Source: Paramecium tetraurelia (taxonomy: Eukaryota). From it: a stretch of DNA of 64,000 nt. Numbering within the stretch: the stretch's first letter is position 1; each line of letters begins with the position of its first letter. The notes under the pieces are model-generated. The model did not search any database. It worked only from the letters and a program-made list of their open reading frames with translations, and was not told the DNA's origin. The position numbers and the translations under genes are program-made. Below, piece after piece: positions 860-12,399 of the stretch. The DNA is taken from NCBI GenBank assembly GCA_000165425.1, contig CT867990.1:1-64000 (forward strand), written 5' to 3'.

Positions 860-1650
860 AGAAATGCTAAGAACGAATATTGTGAATTTGATCTAAATTT
901 GAAATTAAAAAAATGGATTACGTTTGCTTATCAAGAAAATTCTAATGATCAGCATAGAATAGAATGTGCTATAAAAATTCAACAGGATGGGTACATTAAA
1001 CTCTGACTCAATGTATCATAGGCAAGCTTGTTATACATTGCTAATCCCAGATATGAACCTTGAGTCATATAATAATGAGGAAGACAAACAGCAAATATAA
1101 TTAATACAACAGAATGGAACAAATATATAAATAATGTAAGGGGAATTAGGAATCTTGAAGGTATAGAGAAGGATATTAGGAGAAAGGCATATGACAAAGG
1201 TTTTGCATAACAGAAGAAAACAAGAGGAAAAAAGAAATATTAAGAATTTAAGAAGAACTTAATAATAATCATGGGATATGTGGAAGGTCCAGGTGATGAC
1301 ATCAATGCAATTGAGGATCAAATGAAAGGCTTGATTTAACTTCATGGATATAGCTTAAGACATTTAACCATTCTATTACAACAAAAGAACCCCTTTTTTC
1401 ATCATTATGAGAGTATTAGATGACAAAAATGCAAAGAGATAGTCAAAAATATAGAAGAGTATGAAACTGAGAAAAAATTGTTCATTAGAAAATTTAATTA
1501 GATTATTTATCACAGATTAATGCCAGGCTAGCACTAGACGATGTCATGTATTGACTCCTGTACTCACTAGCCTTCAATTAAGAAAAATTATTTCTATACT
1601 CCTATCGAGTATGGTTCTAGGGAGTCGATAACGATACAAATTCAACATAA
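860..1650 (+). pseudogene. eroded coding remnant of unknown family
   Basis: Protein-like stretches (…EWNKYINNVRGIRNLEGIEKDIRRKAYDKGF…GYVEGPGDDINAIEDQMKGL…) broken by TGA stops and frameshifts. Confidence 0.3.
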
Positions 1651-3339
1651 AATTTAATATAATTAACATTTTAATTAATATTTTTTGAAAGTCCTTGATT
1701 ATCAAATTCAAGGGATAGCTTTAGATAATCACAAAATTATGAGAATTTGCCAGCAATCCTAAATAATTTTTTCATCATACAAGAAATCAATTCTGGCAAT
1801 GCGGATTAGAATTTTCAAGAATAATGAAGTCTTATTATCAAGAGAGGTATTGTTAATAGTTAGGCACTCATTTATCATTATGAATACTGTTTGGAAGTAA
1901 AAATGTAAATGGTTCAATAAATTGATTAGCTAAATCTTAAGCAGATCTCGAATAATGAGGGTAGGTAAGAAATTGAAAAGCTAGTCAATATAATATAAAA
2001 GTAAATCGAAATTAATTGGTTCGTCAATCTCCATCAAAGAAATCAGTGCTTCAAGGAATTAAAATAAACCTGATTCAAAATGTCTTTAGAGGCATAGAGT
2101 GCGAAACTTTTGATTCTTAGATTTACAAATTGACCGAAAAAAATAATAGATAAAAGCTTAAAAAATTAAAACGACTAGTGAGATATAAATCTTCTTCACT
2201 ATATCTAAAATAAGGGCATTGATGTTCTTTTAGGGGGTATCGGACCCTGAAGGTTGAAAAATATACTTTACTTATTAATTTAGTATTTCCTTTACAACTT
2301 AATCATAGAATAGTTATGGGTTATTTTTTTAAGCCCTTTCTCTGTTTAAACTTGTGAGGGATACATGGAAAAGTTAAGATTTTCTCGGTTGTGGTTAATG
2401 AAAGGCCTCTCCTTCAATATTGGAAGAAAGTTGATATAATCTGTTATTCGAGATTTCTATATGCAGGACGTTATGTGATGCATCTGTAGAGGAAGAAAAT
2501 ACCCTCGGTTAGATATATTAAAGTTCTTTGGATACAAATAGAGCTGGCCACTTTTAATTTATTAAGGATATCACTTAATTGGATGGATTCTTGAGTGTTT
2601 ATGATAAACCAACTAAAGGGATGAGATAAACCAGTTTAAGAAAATCTTAAGAACAACTTTTTCTTTGATAGCAGAAAAAATATCAATAAATGATACAGAG
2701 AGATGGATTAAGTGATGGACACATTTATCATCATATTTATTAGTGAAAAATTGAAAACCATTAATTCCACATAAATAACTCTCATCCCTTCGAAACTTAA
2801 GTAATTGTTTGGTTTTAAGTTAGTTGATCCTAAGTTCAATATAGTATATAACTCAAGCAATTAGATTAAAATAGCAACCTCACTTTATTCTAAAATGAAT
2901 TTTTGGATCCATTTATCTAAAGTTGATTAACTCCTTTTTAAGTATAAATTGTGTTCTGTAAATTATTGCAGGCCAATTTGACAAAACTCTTTGATTCTCA
3001 GCGTATACTTCGATTATTATAATTAAAGTCATTAGTCCCCTCCAAGCCACATCCTATTAAAATCTTTAAATAAAGAGAAACAGATATTATTATTAAAATA
3101 CTATATCCAAACTATGGTTGGAGCATTTTTTTTGATCTAACCTTTTTAAATAATGGTCATATAGATTTTATTTCATCTTTATTATATCAACCTTTCCTGC
3201 AATCAAAATGGATATCAACCTGCTATAGAGAGATAATACTCTATAATGAGATCCCCCTTTAAGCATTATTTTGCTTTTTTTTTTTCATCTAAAACATCTT
3301 TTCAAAATTAATTTTTAGAAGAAGATTGTAATTGAATTC

Positions 3340-3420: not shown

Positions 3421-4949
3421 CAATCAATCTAATAGAGATTTCATTAAGAAGATTGCCCAACATGATTACTAGAGACATAATGGTTGTCCTTCAGATTTAT
3501 CTTGAATATTGATTACCCAAGGTACTAAATTTTTAGAGCACAGTATTTAAGTTCTTTTTCATCTTACTCCATGTTGTTTATAAAGCATCTAGAGTTCTCG
3601 CAAATTAAATTATTGATTTGAGATACTATACACAAATTATATCTTAATAGACATGCAAAACATCAGGAAGTTTATTTATATATTTAAATAGGATCCCAGT
3701 TTTCCAGAATTAAAAATAAATCTACATTAGGGAGGGGCTAGCCTTTATAAATTCTATTTGAGAGGCAAACAAAAAAATTATTTATTATATTTCTTCAAAT
3801 CTATGCTCCTTCGAGACTCTTTTTTTTGGAGTGAAGAACTTAATCTAGTTATAAACTAATTTTTAAGTTAGTAATATGAACCAAGTATGTTTTTATTAGG
3901 ATAGTAAAAAAAAATTTTTTTAGTCAAAGCACTATTTTACAGATTTTCCTCATTATTAAAAATTTTGAGTAGGATAATTTAGCGTCTATTTAATTTTACA
4001 AATTAAGATAATTCATTACTCCATAAATTTAAGGTTTAATGACAGAATTTAAATAAGAAATACAATCAATTTTATTATCAAAGCATATCATTATCTCTAA
4101 TAATAGGTTATGCGACTCAATAATTTCTTAAATGATATATTATTGTCATCATAATCTAAAGTTATTTCCAGCTTTTTTTTTGAAATTGATATTAGTGAAA
4201 TACTTTTGATCATGATCTTTTAATGAATGATAAAAGAAAGGATATTTTGAGCGTAGCTATCAAACAATCCTGATAGATTAAACAGAAATAAAAGAATTTT
4301 CTAAAAGTAAACTATATATCATATGGACAAAAATAAAATACTTAAATTGACGTTATTTAATTGAGTAGAAAATAAATAGAATGAGGGTTATAACCATTTT
4401 GATTTAGCCATCTATCAAGAAGAATCTTCAGTATTTATTCTGTTGCCAGTGGTAAATCAACCATTTGCATTTGAATTAAGCTTAATCGTTAGGGAACTTT
4501 TGTCTTATTATAAAGAATCACTCCAATAGCCATCCTAAAAAGGTTTATCCAACAAATTATGTATTTAATTCTTTGAGTTATATTATCCGTTCGTCTAAAT
4601 GGGCTTGATTTATAACTTTGAATGGATAGTAGAAACTAATAGATTGTTTTTGCTGCACTTAACTATAATTAAAAACTAAGCGAGTTTGCTCTTTAAATTA
4701 ATCATAGAATTGGCTTCCCACTAATATATTTTTAATCATAACCATCTTTGGACAAATTTATAGACTTTTCATTTTTAAATTAAGTCATTCTACTAAGTTA
4801 TTCTCTTGTTATGACAGTTCAACAAAAGAGTTTAAATGGTAAACTCATTTAGCTGTTAATTTAACTTAAGGAAACAAAAAATATAATTCTTCTTAATGTA
4901 TGTGTGTAATCTATATTCTGTAGTTCTAGCTTAATCGGAGTTAATCGAA

Positions 4950-7270
4950 TTATTCCATTATCTTAACTATTCCACAGTTGAAGAATGTGAAATTTCAAGT
5001 GTGGTGAAAGTTCTTTAACATTCTAGTATCCATTACCCCCACTTATGGAGCAAGATCATCATTACTACCTACTTCTTTATAAAACCATACTCAAGCGAAT
5101 ATTTTTAACTTTCACTGAGTAGCTTATTATGTATTATGAGGGTTCATATTCTAATTAATTGGCCGAATCTATCTCCTTTATCATCATTTATATTAAATGG
5201 TAATATTTTGATTTCACCCAATGCATTCAGACACCTATTATTCTGCCATCAAATTATATTTGACCAGGCAGCCAGAGTATTATAAAACTAGTAACTAATT
5301 AATTTGGACTAGTTATCGGAATAAAGTGAGTTTTCTTAATTGAAACTATCCATATTAATTTAATTCTTATTAGCTCCCAGGCGATCCTTAAGAGAGGACA
5401 TATAATCAAATAAAGCTTTAAGAATGAGCTCTAAATCAAAGTAATTTTATCAAAGCAAAAAATATTTATAAAGATTTCAATCACCCTAACAACAAGGTTA
5501 GCATCGTTTTAACTCCATTAGAGAGTTAGCTATGGCTGCCTATATTGTTGATGGTTACTCCTGAAAAAATTTAACTTATTCTATTCCATTCATGTCCCAT
5601 TTCATCTACTCAACATTAGTATGCTTTATGTATTAGGATTAGGAACTTTTACCTAAAATTGAAATCTTAAGCGATATTCAATAAAGATTTTGGTGATTCT
5701 ATAAGTGACATTTCCATAAGAAGAGATTAACAAATGACAGCATAGGAAACAATTTTAGTACATTTCTTACCCTCATCCGAATATAAACACTTTCCATTAG
5801 TAAATTAAAATGGATCGAGTAAAATTTGAGCTAAAAGATGTCCTTAATGGACTCTATTTTTTTTAAAATAACTATTTCATCATTTTTACCCTTCCAATAT
5901 GTATATCTAATCAGATATCCATTCCAGAGCTATTAACTCATTTGGCAAAAGGAGACCTAAATAGCTTATCTTCCCTTAAGCATTAGAAGATTCCATCCCC
6001 TTTAACAATTTATATGCATTGCATAAGTCAAGGAAAACATACAATCAATTGCCTTTTTCTTTTATTCCCTCATTAATCTAAATATTAGGCTTAGCATACA
6101 AGGCGAGATATAAATCTTGTCCATCCAGATGATATTAAACCAGAACAAAGTATTTAAATCAATTAATATAATTTGCTTCTACAACCTTGATAAAGAGGAT
6201 CTGGACCATAATTGCAAGGAGCATTTTCTTAAAGGTTAATTTTGGTACATTTTGTTTAATCGTACCAGTCTCAAGGATAATAGCTAATTAAACTGTTGAA
6301 TTTCATTAACTTGAATGTGATATTCTTGTTTTACAAATAGATTTCAATAAACATTGTTGGTGAAATTAAAGAGAGATATTATAAGTCTATATGTATAATG
6401 AAAAGTTGTTTTAATTCAAAACAAATCCCCTTTTGAAGTTGAGAAATTTCATGATAAAATTTCATATTTCTTTAGTTTAGTGTGTTGTAAAGCTTTTTAG
6501 AAAAAGCGCAATCAACTTGCATTTAGTGGCTTCGAAAGGATGCTCATTCTTTTAACAATCTCACAACCTATTAATTTAGAACCATTTAATTACTTACTTT
6601 CATATACTCATACACAATCCCATATTAGGCTTTTATAATTTAAATCATAGTTATTTCGCATGAATTAGAGGAATCAGAAAAAGTTCCATATACCTTTCAA
6701 TAACAACCTTGAGAACGATGATCAGATATATAATTGAAACCTAAATCTTCACCTGGCTGACCCTCATCCTTTTTGCGTGATGACATAATCTAGTCTCCTT
6801 TCTTTCAACCTTCCTTTCATATCCTAGTGAAATCTCAAAGAAATCACATCATAAACATCATCCCTAGCTTGAAGAGCATAGTTAAAATCACCTCATATAG
6901 CATTTGGGCGTATTTAAACGACTAAAACATCAATATACATTCCTTTTCGTTCCTTTGACAGTGTGGAAGCTCACAACTCCTAATTATTTATAAATTAAAA
7001 TATTGTATTAAATTTAATTTGAGTGTTCAGCTATCTAATAGCAGGAATTTTATAATGTACCAATGACATAATTGGCTACCCTTCTCTTTATAAATCGTTT
7101 GGTATTATAATAGTTCAAATTCTTATTCATCATTGGATTTAGCATTCCAAACAAGGTTAACCTCTGAAAGATGAACAATTAATTTTGTTTTTAAATATTT
7201 TATACTCGCTAAGTTATATCCTTAAAATACCAACTGATGATTCTAACCTGCCTAACCTTAGATATCCTTA
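4950..7270 (-). mobile_element. decayed non-LTR retrotransposon (LINE) ORF2: APE endonuclease + reverse transcriptase + possible C-terminal CCHC remnant
   Basis: Ordered motifs on the minus strand. APE: RIISW 7244-7230, LFIFQR 7178-7161, RRVANYV (~GGVAIYV) 7085-7065, GDFN 6892-6881, RLDY 6796-6785, SDH 6726-6718. RT: LLAIM..FIKVVE ~6220-6178, LYVFLDLCNAY 6044-6012, RVHQGHLLAQILL 5855-5817, IVSYA+broken DD ~5753-5731, SGVTIN (~LGVTI) ~5565-5548. CSISG…HI..C ~5052-4972. Multiple TGA stops and frameshifts. Confidence 0.85.
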
Positions 7271-7279
7271 ATGAATCAG

Positions 7280-8300
7280 CTAAATGTGCAGAAACTTCAT
7301 CTCTTTAAGGCCCATACTCTTTAATTCTCATTCTACTAATTGGCCCCAGGTCCTAAAGAATGCCTACAGCTCCTTCCTTACTTGTCGATGGAGACAGACT
7401 TAGTTCAAATCCTATTCAAGGCTTATGATGGGAAAGAGGAGAATGCACAGTTAGTATTAGAGATTCCTAAATTCTATGTCTTAAACTTAAATGAATTATG
7501 GGGTTTTCATATATTTTTTCTTTGTTACTTTTTAATCTAGGTAATTAAAGACATTCCCAAACATGAAATCATTTTTATTACGAAATTTGTATATCGTTCA
7601 AATTGAATTATCCTTTCATTTACCACGGTCGTTACCAAAATTTTATATTTGAAATCCATCATTTATTTCCATTTCAATTTTGCTATGTGATACTAACTAT
7701 TTCTGATCATTTATAAGTTTACTTTCATATTTAAGCAAACAAGAAGAAGTTCATCTAATTCTTTTATTTCGTTAGTTCAGCATTTTAAATCATCATTAAT
7801 TTTCTGTTTGAATTTATAAGATATTATTCTCTCATCTTTAAGAAATTAGGTTCCAATTAAAATACTCCTTCAATATTTTCTCATAGATGCACCTAAAATG
7901 GTTCAATCATATTAAGTATTGCTTTTTCGGACTTTGGTTTCCTTAATATATTTTTCTTCAACTCTAAATCTTTTATCTAATTAACTTATTTCTTCTTAAT
8001 TTCTTTTCGTTTAGCATTGCATCATTTGAATCTGCTTCCACTTAATAATTGAGTTTTCAAAATTTATATAATTTTATTTCAAAATATTGAATGAGAACAA
8101 TTATCTAATTTGGCTTTTTAGCACCCAATTTTAAATCATCTATAAGTTCTAAACTGCATAATATTCTAAATAATTTTTGAAATTTTAATAGTTGAAATCA
8201 AACTATTAATCTTTTTATCATCATCAGAATGAGTATGATGGATTCCCTTTTAAAACAGTCAAAATAATTTAATCGAAATCCGATACAATACTCATGATAA
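7280..8300 (-). mobile_element. possible eroded ORF1 / 5' part of the same LINE
   Basis: Lies immediately upstream of the APE domain on the same strand and is Lys/Glu-rich and coding-like, but has no diagnostic motif; assigned by position only. Confidence 0.25.
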
Positions 8301-8381
8301 CAAATAAAATCAATCTCTTCCTTATGGTTATCTTTTTAACATTTTAACTTCAAACTTCCTTATTAAATCATTTTTTATATT

Positions 8382-8382
<1 letters not shown>

Positions 8383-8421
<39 letters not shown>
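8383..8421. repeat. (TAA)13 microsatellite
   Basis: 13 perfect TAA units read directly. Confidence 0.95.
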
Positions 8422-8422
<1 letters not shown>

Positions 8423-8859
8423 CTTTTTGGTTTCTTTTTTCCATAATTTCCTGACCTTTTCATCGAACTAGCAAAATGTAAATCTTCTAAAAAGAAACTC
8501 TTCTAAGCTTTCTCTATTACTAATTTATTTTAAATTGGCTCATCAATTTACCCTTTTACATAAAATTCCTAATAAACATTCAGACACCAAAGATCCTCCT
8601 AGTTTACTTAATGAGGCGATATTGAACAAGGAAAGCCCAATAAGGGACTGAATTTTGTTAGCTCAAATGTATATTGTTTTTGAAATTCAGATTTAAAAAA
8701 AAATTTAATTTGTAATATAATTCTGTTTTTTTTCAATTTCTATTTCTTAATATATTAATTTTCATTTACAATGATAATTATTTTGAGGGTTGATTATTTA
8801 AGCAGCTTAATAAATTATCTTTTATCTTTTATTTTTTTCAATTAAAGCTAATAAAGGGG

Positions 8860-10400
8860 AATAGCAACAAATAGTCATAGATATAATACAAAGAAAATTA
8901 GGAGAAGAATCTTGGTAAAATATATTTAATGTTTAATTTAGCAAAACATGAAATGAAGTTAAATTAGTATACAGGTTTATAAATCCTATCATAAGAAGGA
9001 TAATTCTAGTTACTATAAACTCAATTAATATTTGCTTTACAATATCTTTGCAGATTATACCAATAGTAGAACAATTGTGTTAACAAAGCTTTAGATAACT
9101 AATAAATGAAAATAAAACTCTCCTTTCTGCTTCAAAGATTTCAAACTCAAATTATACTAATTTCACCTTACAATTGTTTTGAGATTAAATAAAATCATAC
9201 TATCTCTTTACTATTTATATAAAAAGATATTTCAAATATATAATTCAAAAACACTAATAACAAGAAGACAACTAGAAATATTCAGCTCGGCTCAAAGCTA
9301 GAGAATTTAACATTTTTTTATATTTATTGTTTAGATATGATTCTATTATTTAAATAATCAATACTTCTATTTATATTTATAAAGACTCAATTTATACTCA
9401 TTTTTAGTATTAATTTCTTGTGGATACTCAATGAGGAGAAACAAAAATAATAGACAGTAACAATTTAAATTATTGATAATCACGAGAGAAGATGCTTACT
9501 TAAATTATAATAATTAATTTTTATTGAAAAAATTAAATGGAAGGACTGAAATTATTTGTTCAATTAGATGCTTAAATAAGAGGAGAAAAATTAATGAGAA
9601 AAGAAATACAATTAAATAAATTAAAGTGGAGGCTTATTCAACTGAATGGACTAAAAGATTATTTACGAATAATATATAAAAATGATCAATACCACATAAT
9701 AGTTCTATAATAATTATTCAATTATTTTTAAAAACTGCTCTGATGATGGTAATAAAACAATATATTTTAATTAAATGTATAAACCATAAATGATAGAAAA
9801 AGCGCAAGACTTTAGTTGTTCCATTAAACACAAACTACCAATAAGTATGGTGATAGGACTTAAAAAACTCATCCAAACGATAGAAGAAAAACTAAGAAGA
9901 AATAATTAGAACACTTAGAAAATATGATTTCACCAATGATAACAAAAATTTAGTCACTTTTAGGTCAGCTAAATACTTTGAAGTTTTTCCTTGTTTTACA
10001 ATTCGACAATGGATTGGATATCAAATTTATAATCATTAGGTTTAAAGTAATAAAAATATAGTCTCTATAAGGAATTAGAAGTAATGATCAAGTATTAAAA
10101 ATCAAATGAAAATGATTAGATTGATGAAACAAATTAGATTAAATTACTAAATGATTCTTTTTCCACTAAAATTGATAATAAGTTAGATTCATTCAAATAA
10201 TATTAGGAATATTAAAAATGTCAACAAATATTACAAGAATTGTCATCTTAATTCTATTAATAATCAATATATGTTCAAATATAATTGTTAAATTTAGAGA
10301 TCCTAAATTTCAAGGAAGTGGAGTTAAAGTGTATTAAACTTCTTAATCTTGGTTGAATAGCTTTGAAGTAAAATATTAATTGCATATTAGTTTCCAAAAT
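8860..10400 (+). pseudogene. heavily eroded remnant of a large helical protein gene
   Basis: Purine-rich coding-like composition with short peptide islands (e.g. KFQGSGVK ~10306-10330); no continuous frame. Confidence 0.25.
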
Positions 10401-10918: not shown

Positions 10919-11068
10919 NNNNNNNNNNNNNNNNNNNNNNNNNNNNNNNNNNNNNNNNNNNNNNNNNNNNNNNNNNNNNNNNNNNNNNNNNNNNNNNNNN
11001 NNNNNNNNNNNNNNNNNNNNNNNNNNNNNNNNNNNNNNNNNNNNNNNNNNNNNNNNNNNNNNNNNNNN
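10919..11068. other. assembly gap (150 N)
   Basis: run of N. Confidence 1.
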
Positions 11069-11137: not shown

Positions 11138-12092
11138 TCAGTACTCTTATATATATGATAACCTTTTAAAATTGATACTTAATATAATAATAAATATAAT
11201 TTTACATAGCCCTAGTACTACCTTAATAACTTGATTTGTTAAGGATACATTCAAAAACTGACACGGATTCCATCTTTGATCAACATCATATCCTCGTTTT
11301 GCGATTAATGGAGTAGCTGAGGCTATATCATTAAATTATTCTTATAGGAATAAAATAGTTTAGGTCACTTCAGCATTATAATATGACCTACTGATAAATG
11401 GGTGATTTTCATTCATATCAAGAGTAAAAGATAATTCAGGAGATGTCCATAAAGATTGATCAGTTCCCAAAAGAATATTGAATTTTATATAGTTTAGTTG
11501 GGCTAGGGTATATGTATTTGCAGAGACTATAACTGTTTTTGAGTTTAGTTATTCAATCTACCATTTTTATATACATCAGTTTTACTTTTAATTCCACTAT
11601 AAAGTTATAATATGTATGTCTGATACCTATCAAGGCAATAATGCTCTTAGTTGCATCTTGTAATAGATGTTCAATTATGAATTAGACGCTCCTGCTTCCT
11701 GATCCTGATGTTAAAGCTTAGAAATCAGTTGATTCAAATGTTACTACCTTAAGCCTTGGATCATCAAATGCAACCCAATCTACGGATATTCCGTAAAGAG
11801 GATATGTTGATACTGCATATGCTCTCAATTTGAATCCTTTTAATAGTGATACAATACCTGTTGTTGTTATAATGCTAACTTTCTCCATAAATCCATTAGG
11901 AAGAAGGTATTCCCAATCTGAACGCTGTGAAGTTATAAAAACTTAAGCTTAAACTTCAATAAATCTTGGAAGAGCTGTTGAGGTTTGTAATATATGCTGA
12001 GATTGAGAGAAGTTCATTATTTCAACATTACCTTTTTCAAACTTCGCATCTCTTAAACTATAAACTCGAGACAATAATATTAAAAAAATCAT
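11138..12092 (-). CDS. secreted H-type lectin domain protein (3' end approximate)
   Basis: Signal-peptide-like MIFLILLSRVYS; …ITTTGFKLRAYAVSTYPLYGISVDWVAFDD matches the H-type lectin pattern; 21-nt GT..AG intron. Confidence 0.6.
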
Positions 12093-12399
12093 TTTCTATA
12101 TTAACTTTGAAAATTCTGAATTTTTCAATTTTTTTTAAATATGAAAATCATATTATATTATATTAATTCTTAATAATAATTATTTTTCATAAAGAAGAAC
12201 TTTCTAAATATTCAAACAAGAAATTATCATTCACATATTGCAACGTTGCTAATAAAATTACCAACTAATTACAAACATTGTCGTACTTTTGGAAAGCCTA
12301 TAATTTTGTTCGATTAAAATATCTCTTGATCTTACAAATTAACTATTTACTTTACAACTTGACAGAATTTTCGTGATCATGTAAAGCCATTTGTTCATC

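What the first reader, a model, noticed from the sequence alone, without database searches (positions are those of the whole stretch)
4950..7270. Hidden decayed APE+RT LINE retrotransposon, invisible to the ORF track
Seen: translated with TAA/TAG=Gln, the minus strand shows APE endonuclease motifs in canonical order (RIISW, LFIFQR, RRVANYV ~GGVAIYV, GDFN 6892-6881, RLDY 6796-6785, SDH 6726-6718). RT motifs follow (VFLDLCNAY ~FLDxxKAFD, RVHQGHLLA ~GVxQGxxLS, IVSYA with DD broken by a 1-nt loss, SGVTIN ~YLGVxI), then a degenerate CxxC…H…C. Known: this is the ORF2 layout of APE-type non-LTR retrotransposons, which in Paramecium are mostly germline-limited. Inference: an old, inactive and compact (~770 codons) LINE copy, possibly a divergent or uncatalogued family.
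Basis: partly seen in the sequence, partly recalled or inferred. Interest (0 to 1): 0.8.

Follow-up and report, generated by a model that had tools for sequence, protein, structure and literature searches.

The report
Dead LINE retrotransposon relic in Paramecium
This is the broken remains of an old copy-and-paste mobile element (a LINE retrotransposon) left near a chromosome end in a ciliate's working nucleus; it belongs to a known class and is probably a previously unlisted relative of one known subgroup.

Summary
The minus strand at about 4850-7520 holds a decayed APE+RT non-LTR retrotransposon. All nine quoted motifs sit in canonical order. Pfam and two whole-database searches missed it. 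A frameshift-aware profile of 17 ciliate-type LINEs, built without the window, scored it above 300 of 300 shuffles and gave one collinear APE-to-RT path with 12 frameshifts and 6 stops. RT support is solid, APE support is moderate, and the zinc knuckle was not detected. The breaks are real: contigs from three other runs match with one substitution and no gap. The genome is a Paramecium tetraurelia somatic assembly holding other LINE relics. By hand comparison the closest published group is Group 5 of PMC5405496 (RT blocks 67/142 identical, Group 4 36/142; APE about 24%). The tree could not settle the group. The short length is mostly internal deletion, including a conserved linker motif, so it is not good evidence of a compact family. 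Best reading: a dead copy of an uncatalogued Group 5-related family. Known class, modest interest.

The parts
4850..7520 (-). Decayed single-ORF APE+RT non-LTR retrotransposon (LINE) copy; both ends approximate
   Evidence: Collinear profile path 7122-5390 and 7231-6713. 5' end inferred from the Group 5 layout and the G+C step near 7500. 3' end inferred; no TSD or clear tail found.
7245..7520 (-). Probable N-terminal extension before the endonuclease (about 80 codons); no ORF1 seen
   Evidence: G+C 31-44% in 7201-7500 against 23-26% in 7501-8000; Groups 4 and 5 have such an extension and no ORF1. Inference; no sequence match shown.
6713..7244 (-). APE (apurinic-type) endonuclease domain relic: SW, E at 7164, GDxN, DY, SDH
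   Evidence: Motif positions; APE profile path 7231-6713, 35.5 bits, 0 of 500 shuffles with loose penalties, 19 of 500 with strict. W-to-GD spacing 113 codons, equal to Group 5 by hand count.
6275..6712 (-). APE-RT linker, shortened by about 56 codons; the conserved RDGxIxN-type motif is missing
   Evidence: 152 codons against 196-246 in eight others and 208 in Group 5 (hand count); motif columns empty in the window row.
5547..6274 (-). Reverse transcriptase domain relic; the catalytic YADD motif is broken right after YA at 5744-5739
   Evidence: Profile score 43.4, 0 of 300 shuffles; single queries L025, L030, L035, L004 each beat 300 of 300 shuffles; 21 of 34 near-invariant RT columns kept, shuffles mean 5.8, max 16.
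5390..5546 (-). Post-RT region up to the FDY motif
   Evidence: On the loose profile path; G-to-FDY spacing 50 codons against 51 in Group 5 (hand count).
4850..5389 (-). Presumed C-terminal region; at most a degenerate zinc-knuckle trace (C at 5020, HxxxH at 5001-4987, across a frame change)
   Evidence: No signal above null; translations. Position only; not confirmed.

Best explanation
A near-full-length copy of a single-ORF APE+RT LINE inserted long ago near a chromosome end of Paramecium tetraurelia. When active, the element's RNA would have been translated into one protein whose APE domain nicks target DNA and whose RT copies the RNA from that nick (target-primed reverse transcription; established knowledge of APE-type LINEs, inferred here, not shown). 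This copy then decayed neutrally by frameshifts, stops and several deletions of tens of bases, and can no longer make that protein (shown). It lies in gene-poor terminal DNA that this somatic assembly retains (shown for the assembly; the retained share of chromosomes is unknown). Its source was most likely a family related to Group 5 but separate from the five catalogued Group 5 families (inferred). That it is a dead LINE: about 0.95. The confidence below is for the whole statement, including the separate family.
For: Profile and single-sequence frameshift-aware tests against shuffles; positive controls scored 91-253 and the telomerase-like locus 23 with the first profile. Breaks are in the DNA: one 8377-nt contig in each of runs X1, X8, X9 covers 3500-8319 with 1 other letter and 0 gaps. 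Group 5 affinity: hand count 67 of 142 identical RT positions against RT48784 and 36 of 142 against Group 4 RT4152; spacings W-GD 113/113, GD-DY 34/35, D-HQG 60/60, G-FDY 50/51 codons, where seven other sequences have W-GD 128-134; best tree joins it to the Group 5-like relic C111 (92/84). Separate family: APE only about 43 of 178 identical by hand while its catalytic residues are intact, though Group 5 families are about as alike in APE as in RT; identity to C111 is 51 of 198, 0.58 of the product of their motif retention, against 0.76-0.87 for five same-family pairs; HQG-to-YA spacing is 35 codons, the state of Groups 1-3 and outgroups (31-35), not 51-55.
Against: No Pfam hit, no hit among 1.84 billion representatives, no hit with the first, generic profile under four penalty sets; 11 of 19 single queries did not beat the shuffles. 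The tree does not reject placement with Group 4 (p-AU 0.41) or Group 2 (0.18), and the branch is long. The Group 5 counts are by hand, with frames chosen to fit, so they are upper estimates. The window is among the most decayed relics (0.62 retention; range of 12 others 0.59-0.97), so 47% in the best blocks is close to what a worn Group 5 copy could give. The short spacer could be one more deletion. One pair (C270/C189) broke the calibration (ratio 1.2).
Confidence: 0.58

Rival explanations
1. A very old, heavily decayed copy of Group 5 itself (one of the five families or their common ancestor); all differences, the short RT spacer included, arose after insertion.
For: 47% hand identity in RT blocks and near-exact Group 5 spacings; low motif retention of 0.62; other deletions are present, and both ends of the Group 5 spacer are recognisable by eye with the middle 20 codons missing.
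Against: APE about 24% against RT about 47%, with APE catalytic residues intact; spacer length lands on the ancestral 35; low identity to the Group 5-like relic C111.
Confidence: 0.3
2. A relic of a lineage that branched before Groups 4 and 5 split, like the P. sexaurelia copies noted in the Fig. 1G legend of PMC13085455.
For: Short APE as in Groups 4 and 5 combined with the ancestral RT spacer; one RT stretch carries the Group 4 state (IMVQ); tree unresolved; such a lineage is reported.
Against: Most diagnostic RT residues match Group 5 and not Group 4 (67 against 36 of 142 by hand).
Confidence: 0.07
3. A LINE-derived sequence kept in the somatic genome for a role as non-coding RNA.
For: Seven contigs of RNA-seq run X17 lie within 4854-7651; three runs guessed to be RNA, from two more studies, hold 55-58% of its words.
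Against: Contigs cannot show strand, level or that the source is RNA; the run was found with this stretch; the condition is unknown, and TE copies become expressed on EZL1 knock-down (PMC6586856 passages). No second copy or conserved relative was seen.
Confidence: 0.03
4. Chance motifs in AT-rich intergenic DNA, or a pseudogene of a cellular RT (telomerase) or endonuclease.
For: Standard HMM and database searches are blank.
Against: Scores beat all shuffles for RT; ten anchors keep LINE order and spacing; the telomerase-like locus L005 scores at background with the LINE profile.
Confidence: 0.02

Closest known systems
Paramecium Group 5 non-LTR retrotransposons (RT48784, RT3903, RT283, RT50144, RT41453; PMC5405496)
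   Same: Single ORF with APE then RT and no ORF1; short APE (W-to-GD 113 codons); RT signatures LNKM, DLxNAY, NExxALxW, VHQGxLLA, FDY; similar overall length (consensus 3078 bp).
   Different: Only about 47% (RT blocks) and about 24% (APE) identical by hand; RT spacer 35 against 55 codons; linker 152 against 208; CX2CX7HX3H knuckle and (TTTAA)n tail not confirmed; dead copy.
Paramecium Group 4 non-LTR retrotransposons (RT4152 and relatives; PMC5405496)
   Same: Single ORF, short APE (about 115 codons W-to-GD by hand), DL in place of DF in the RT motif, IISW.
   Different: 36 of 142 RT positions identical by hand; spacer 51 codons; VQQG in place of VHQG; (TTA)n tail.
Paramecium Groups 1-3 and other ciliate-clade LINEs (P0006-P0017, L025; relics C15, C147, C680, C674, C696, C74, C684, C591, C50)
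   Same: APE+RT, RLxPLNK-type motif, 31-35-codon RT spacer; together they give the profile that detects the window.
   Different: Groups 1-3 carry an ORF1; longer APE (128-134); 21-30% identity to the window's RT path.
Group 5-like relic in the same genome, G000:C111 near 16.2 kb (L035/L041)
   Same: Decayed, near a contig end, Group 5-type RT residues; joins the window in the best tree; scores 46 bits against it, 0 of 300 shuffles.
   Different: Keeps the long spacer (51 codons); 26% identical to the window; no DNA-level match.

Membership tests
APE-type non-LTR retrotransposon (LINE) | RT domain of the non-LTR type | tested here: met
   above 300 of 300 shuffles; 21 of 34 near-invariant columns kept. 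Pfam RVT_1 on single frames was blank.
APE-type non-LTR retrotransposon (LINE) | APE endonuclease upstream of and collinear with RT | tested here: met
   (0 of 500 shuffles with loose penalties, 19 of 500 with strict; 1 of 120 other stretches scored higher) and the single path. Moderate support.
APE-type non-LTR retrotransposon (LINE) | 3' simple-repeat tail and target-site duplication | tested here: inconclusive
   Direct repeats between the end zones were at chance level (9 of 8 nt against a random mean of 6.85; none of 11 nt or more). No tandem repeat at the 3' end; three TTAAN units at about 4870-4856 could be chance.
APE-type non-LTR retrotransposon (LINE) | Interspersed multiple copies | tested here: inconclusive
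   Only itself in the somatic assembly by DNA, protein and motif search; no variant contigs listed over it, whose tables were cut. Germline assemblies could not be searched directly.
Active (autonomous) LINE | Intact ORF with YADD | tested here: not met
   12 frameshifts and 6 stops on the path, YADD broken; breaks confirmed in three other runs.
Ciliate LINE clade (PMC5405496) | RT groups with Paramecium and Tetrahymena elements and carries clade motifs | tested here: met
   Detected by ciliate-clade queries and not by the more distant RT L026; RLxxLNK and HQG motifs present. No formal test against the 11 other clades.
Paramecium Group 5 | Single ORF, no ORF1 | tested here: inconclusive
   No ORF1 or its zinc finger seen by eye in 7300-8200; decay could hide one.
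Paramecium Group 5 | RT branches with Group 5 | tested here: inconclusive
   Joins C111 at 92/84; Group 4 and Group 2 placements not rejected. The published consensus proteins were not in the tree; hand comparison favours Group 5.
Paramecium Group 5 | Long RT spacer (55 codons HQG to YADD; RT domain 816 bp) | tested here: not met
   35.0 codons; may be ancestral or a deletion.
Paramecium Group 5 | C-terminal CX2CX7HX3H and (TTTAA)n tail | tested here: inconclusive
   No profile signal, but that profile held no Group 5 C-terminus; an HxxxH lies at 5001-4987.
Paramecium Group 5 | Nucleotide identity to a Group 5 consensus (RepeatMasker-type call) | not testable with these tools
   The consensus library could be read but not loaded for alignment.

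The most novel reading that the evidence does not exclude
The relic is the only visible trace in P. tetraurelia of an extinct, uncatalogued LINE lineage (a sixth group, or an early sister of Group 5 from before the RT spacer grew), fixed in somatic DNA with no excised segments and still transcribed as a unit. It would date the Group 4/5 radiation and give a single-copy test locus for how old transposon relics escape programmed DNA elimination.
Probability: 0.25. Interest if true: 0.45.

Novelty: new member of a known kind. Interest (0 to 1): 0.27.

Why it matters
It is a small addition to Paramecium transposon history. If the source family is separate, LINE diversity is wider than the 38 catalogued families, and part of the unannotated germline and chromosome-end DNA (50-70% of MIC-limited DNA has no annotation, PMC13085455 section 7) is old LINE sequence that six-frame HMM searches miss but frameshift-aware ones recover. 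It is no new mechanism and the copy is dead.

Tried and rejected
Pfam on three read-through frames (0 of 3) and seven pieces (no RT or APE family). RVT_1 and Exo_endo_phos_2 searches of the own genome did not list the window (5 and 1 matches elsewhere). phmmer of a 633-residue frame against 1.84 billion representatives: 0. Word-based protein searches: 0 of 241 and 0 of 62 candidates. PDB sequence search: 2 chance matches. The protein-atlas look-up gave no result, so no language-model or fold comparison exists. tblastn, tblastx and blastn with other relics gave no convincing match to the element. The first two profiles (15 and 13 database proteins) did not detect it: 20-45 bits, below other parts of the window under all four penalty sets; the profile that did was the third, and both penalty sets tried on it passed. 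Assembly error or segments excised during development as the cause of the breaks: rejected for the runs laid (no gap or joint inside 4900-7500 apart from one 21-letter side match at 7014); whether those runs hold germline DNA is inferred from their size only. In RNA run X17 no contig lay on 3500-4853 or 7652-9080; lack of cover proves nothing, and the run was chosen with the element. A Group 5 motif scan of metagenomes found 0; in the own genome it found one other LINE relic. Target-site duplication: chance level. The (TAA)13 at 8383-8422 was considered as the element's tail and rejected: it is upstream, 860 nt from the 5' end. Earlier scan notes: none.

Full report
Setting. The window is the first 64 kb of contig C7 of a 72,094,543-base, 697-contig genome. 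Of 25 long frames scanned with Pfam, the first clear genes were a chromo-shadow protein at 15.9-16.4 kb, FAM221 at 16.4 kb and a kinase at 19-20 kb; below 11 kb nothing reached E 0.01. The element thus lies in gene-poor terminal DNA.

Observation. They fall in all three frames. Standard tools miss the element: Pfam gave no RT or APE family for 3 whole frames or 7 pieces; the RVT_1 search of the genome returned 5 matches elsewhere; phmmer against 1.84 billion representatives returned 0; word searches returned 0 of 241 candidates.

Formal test. I wrote a frameshift-aware local aligner. Profiles of 15 and 13 database RT proteins, found with a better-preserved relic, did not detect the window under four penalty sets, while four other relics scored 91-253 and a telomerase-like locus 23. 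A search of the genome with P0006 gave 14 matches at 12 loci, the window not among them; 11 of these loci aligned as LINE relics at 91-460 bits and one short piece at 44.5. As single queries against 4800-7700, 4 of 19 sequences beat all 300 shuffles (L025 53 bits, L030 47.5, L035 46, L004 37.5), 4 more were reached by 1-4 shuffles, and 11 were reached by 21 or more. A profile of 17 sequences (5 intact, 12 relics, window excluded) scored 43.4 against 19.4 +/- 2.4 (0 of 300; 0 of 40 other stretches) and, with looser penalties, 64.9 against 29.0 +/- 4.7, with one collinear path from APE through RT to the post-RT region, 7122-5390, holding 12 frameshifts and 6 stops. In a tiling of the whole window it was the best of 82 tiles; the runner-up, 38.1, lay at 48-49 kb, where an ordinary gene matches a paralogue. 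An 8-sequence APE profile aligned over the whole domain, 7231-6713, at 35.5 bits (0 of 500 shuffles; 1 of 120 other stretches higher) but only with loose penalties; with strict ones 19 of 500 shuffles reached it. A C-terminal profile gave nothing. The RT is therefore well supported, the APE moderately, and the zinc knuckle not at all.

The breaks are real. Twenty of 24 listed runs hold half or more of the element's words. In X1, X8 and X9 one 8377-nt contig covers 3500-8319 with one other letter (5258) and no gap. So the frameshifts are not assembly errors, and no inserted segment was seen. These contig sets are 96-214 Mb, larger than the somatic assembly, so they may include germline DNA; that is inference. 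No variant contigs were listed over the element, whereas up to 13 contigs differ at 8335 in a neighbouring repeat; the tables were cut, so single-copy status is only suggested. Seven contigs of RNA-seq run X17 lie within 4854-7651. Contigs show neither strand nor level, DNA can be present, and the condition is unknown; TE copies are expressed almost only after EZL1 knock-down (PMC6586856, passages).

Which family. PMC5405496 (passages; sections 7 and 8; Table S3/S4 file whole; parts 28 and 29 of 29 of the sequence file and four searches in it; the PDF with the RT alignment was too large to read) describes five groups of APE+RT LINEs; Groups 4 and 5 have a single ORF. By hand, six RT blocks of the window match Group 5 RT48784 at 67 of 142 positions and Group 4 RT4152 at 36 of 142; the APE matches Group 5 at about 43 of 178. 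Frames were chosen to fit, so these are upper estimates, and no alignment program saw the published sequences. Anchor spacings in codons (window, Group 5 counted by hand) are W-GD 113/113, GD-DY 34/35, DY-SDH 21/23, SDH-RL 152/208, RL-D 81/87, D-HQG 60/60, HQG-Y 35/55, Y-G 61/64, G-FDY 50/51. Seven other sequences have W-GD 128-134. The tree of 23 RT rows joins the window to the Group 5-like relic C111 (92/84), but the branch is long and placement with Group 4 (p-AU 0.41) or Group 2 (0.18) is not rejected. Group labels of the relics were assigned by eye from the supplement.

Separate family or worn Group 5 copy. The window keeps 21 of 34 near-invariant RT columns (0.62; the 12 other relics 0.59-0.97; shuffles mean 5.8), so it is among the most decayed. 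That alone could bring a Group 5 copy to roughly 50%. Against this, the APE is half as similar as the RT although its catalytic residues survive, which suggests divergence under selection before the copy died; identity to C111 (51 of 198) is 0.58 of the product of their retentions, against 0.76-0.87 in five same-family pairs, 1.2 in one Group 4 pair and 0.48-0.52 in two different-family pairs; and the HQG-to-YA spacer has the ancestral length. I put a separate Group 5-related family at about 0.6 and a plain Group 5 copy at 0.3. [quoted passage not shown] I did not find this locus or such a family described in three literature searches, which cover only the open library; the REPET annotation of PMC13085455 and ParameciumDB may already mark it.

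Compactness. The shortfall against Group 5 is about 56 codons in the linker, 20 in the RT spacer and smaller amounts elsewhere. The linker lacks the RDGxIxN-type motif seen in all 11 intact sequences that cover it, and by eye it aligns to Group 5 in blocks separated by three gaps of about 16-22 codons. Deletion after insertion is the simpler reading.

How it works. Shown: APE-then-RT order, loss of coding capacity, presence in the somatic assembly and in many sequencing runs. Inferred from general knowledge of APE-type LINEs (recalled): the parent element moved by target-primed reverse transcription. Inferred from PMC5405496 and PMC13085455: most such copies are removed during macronuclear development, 0.62 Mb of LINE sequence stays in MAC-destined DNA, and partly retained DNA peaks towards chromosome ends. 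This copy fits that pattern; its retained share was not measured.

Verdict. A real and well-spotted fossil of a known class, probably from an unlisted family. New member of a known kind; interest 0.27.

Noticed in passing
window 8171-8427: Fragment of a multi-copy family: 72-89% matches on C616, C138, C83, C252, three of them within 3.2 kb of a contig start. Those relatives extend over 0.8-1.4 kb among themselves and contain tandem units of about 130 nt. Many variant contigs. None of the words tried was found in the published TE library.
   Followed up: partly
window 8383-8422: Perfect (TAA)13 microsatellite at the junction of two different repeat fragments; upstream of the LINE relic and not its tail.
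   Followed up: partly
window 8421-9243: Pieces of a second repeat shared with C263 (86%) and C228 (81-93%); those two loci are 79% alike over 938 nt.
   Followed up: partly
L041 4300-5700 (G000:C111, about 15.3-16.7 kb, minus strand): A Group 5-like LINE relic with the long RT spacer, about half identical to the Group 5 consensus by eye; may be another unlisted family.
   Followed up: partly
L002-L004, L027-L040 (C74, C15, C270, C147, C680, C696, C674, C684, C189, C591, C491, C50): At least 12 further LINE relics in this somatic assembly, resembling Groups 1-4 by eye, with 3.5-8.9 frameshifts per kb. The C147 relic is annotated in databases as a protein (P0005).
   Followed up: partly
window 5258: All four laid runs read T where the window has A: a strain difference or a one-base assembly error.
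   Followed up: no
window 903-1700 (+): Looks by eye like a decayed coding sequence; no Pfam family and no other match in the genome.
   Followed up: partly
window 11485-12230: Weak H-type lectin match (E 0.007) on the minus strand; a 150-N gap lies at 10919-11068.
   Followed up: no
L005 (G000:C546 near 328.9 kb): The weak RVT_1 match there reads like telomerase reverse transcriptase (motifs recalled); used as a negative control.
   Followed up: no
L025 (Ga0116231_10079382): An intact 707-codon open frame of a ciliate-clade APE+RT LINE in a metagenome contig; the best single query against the window.
   Followed up: partly
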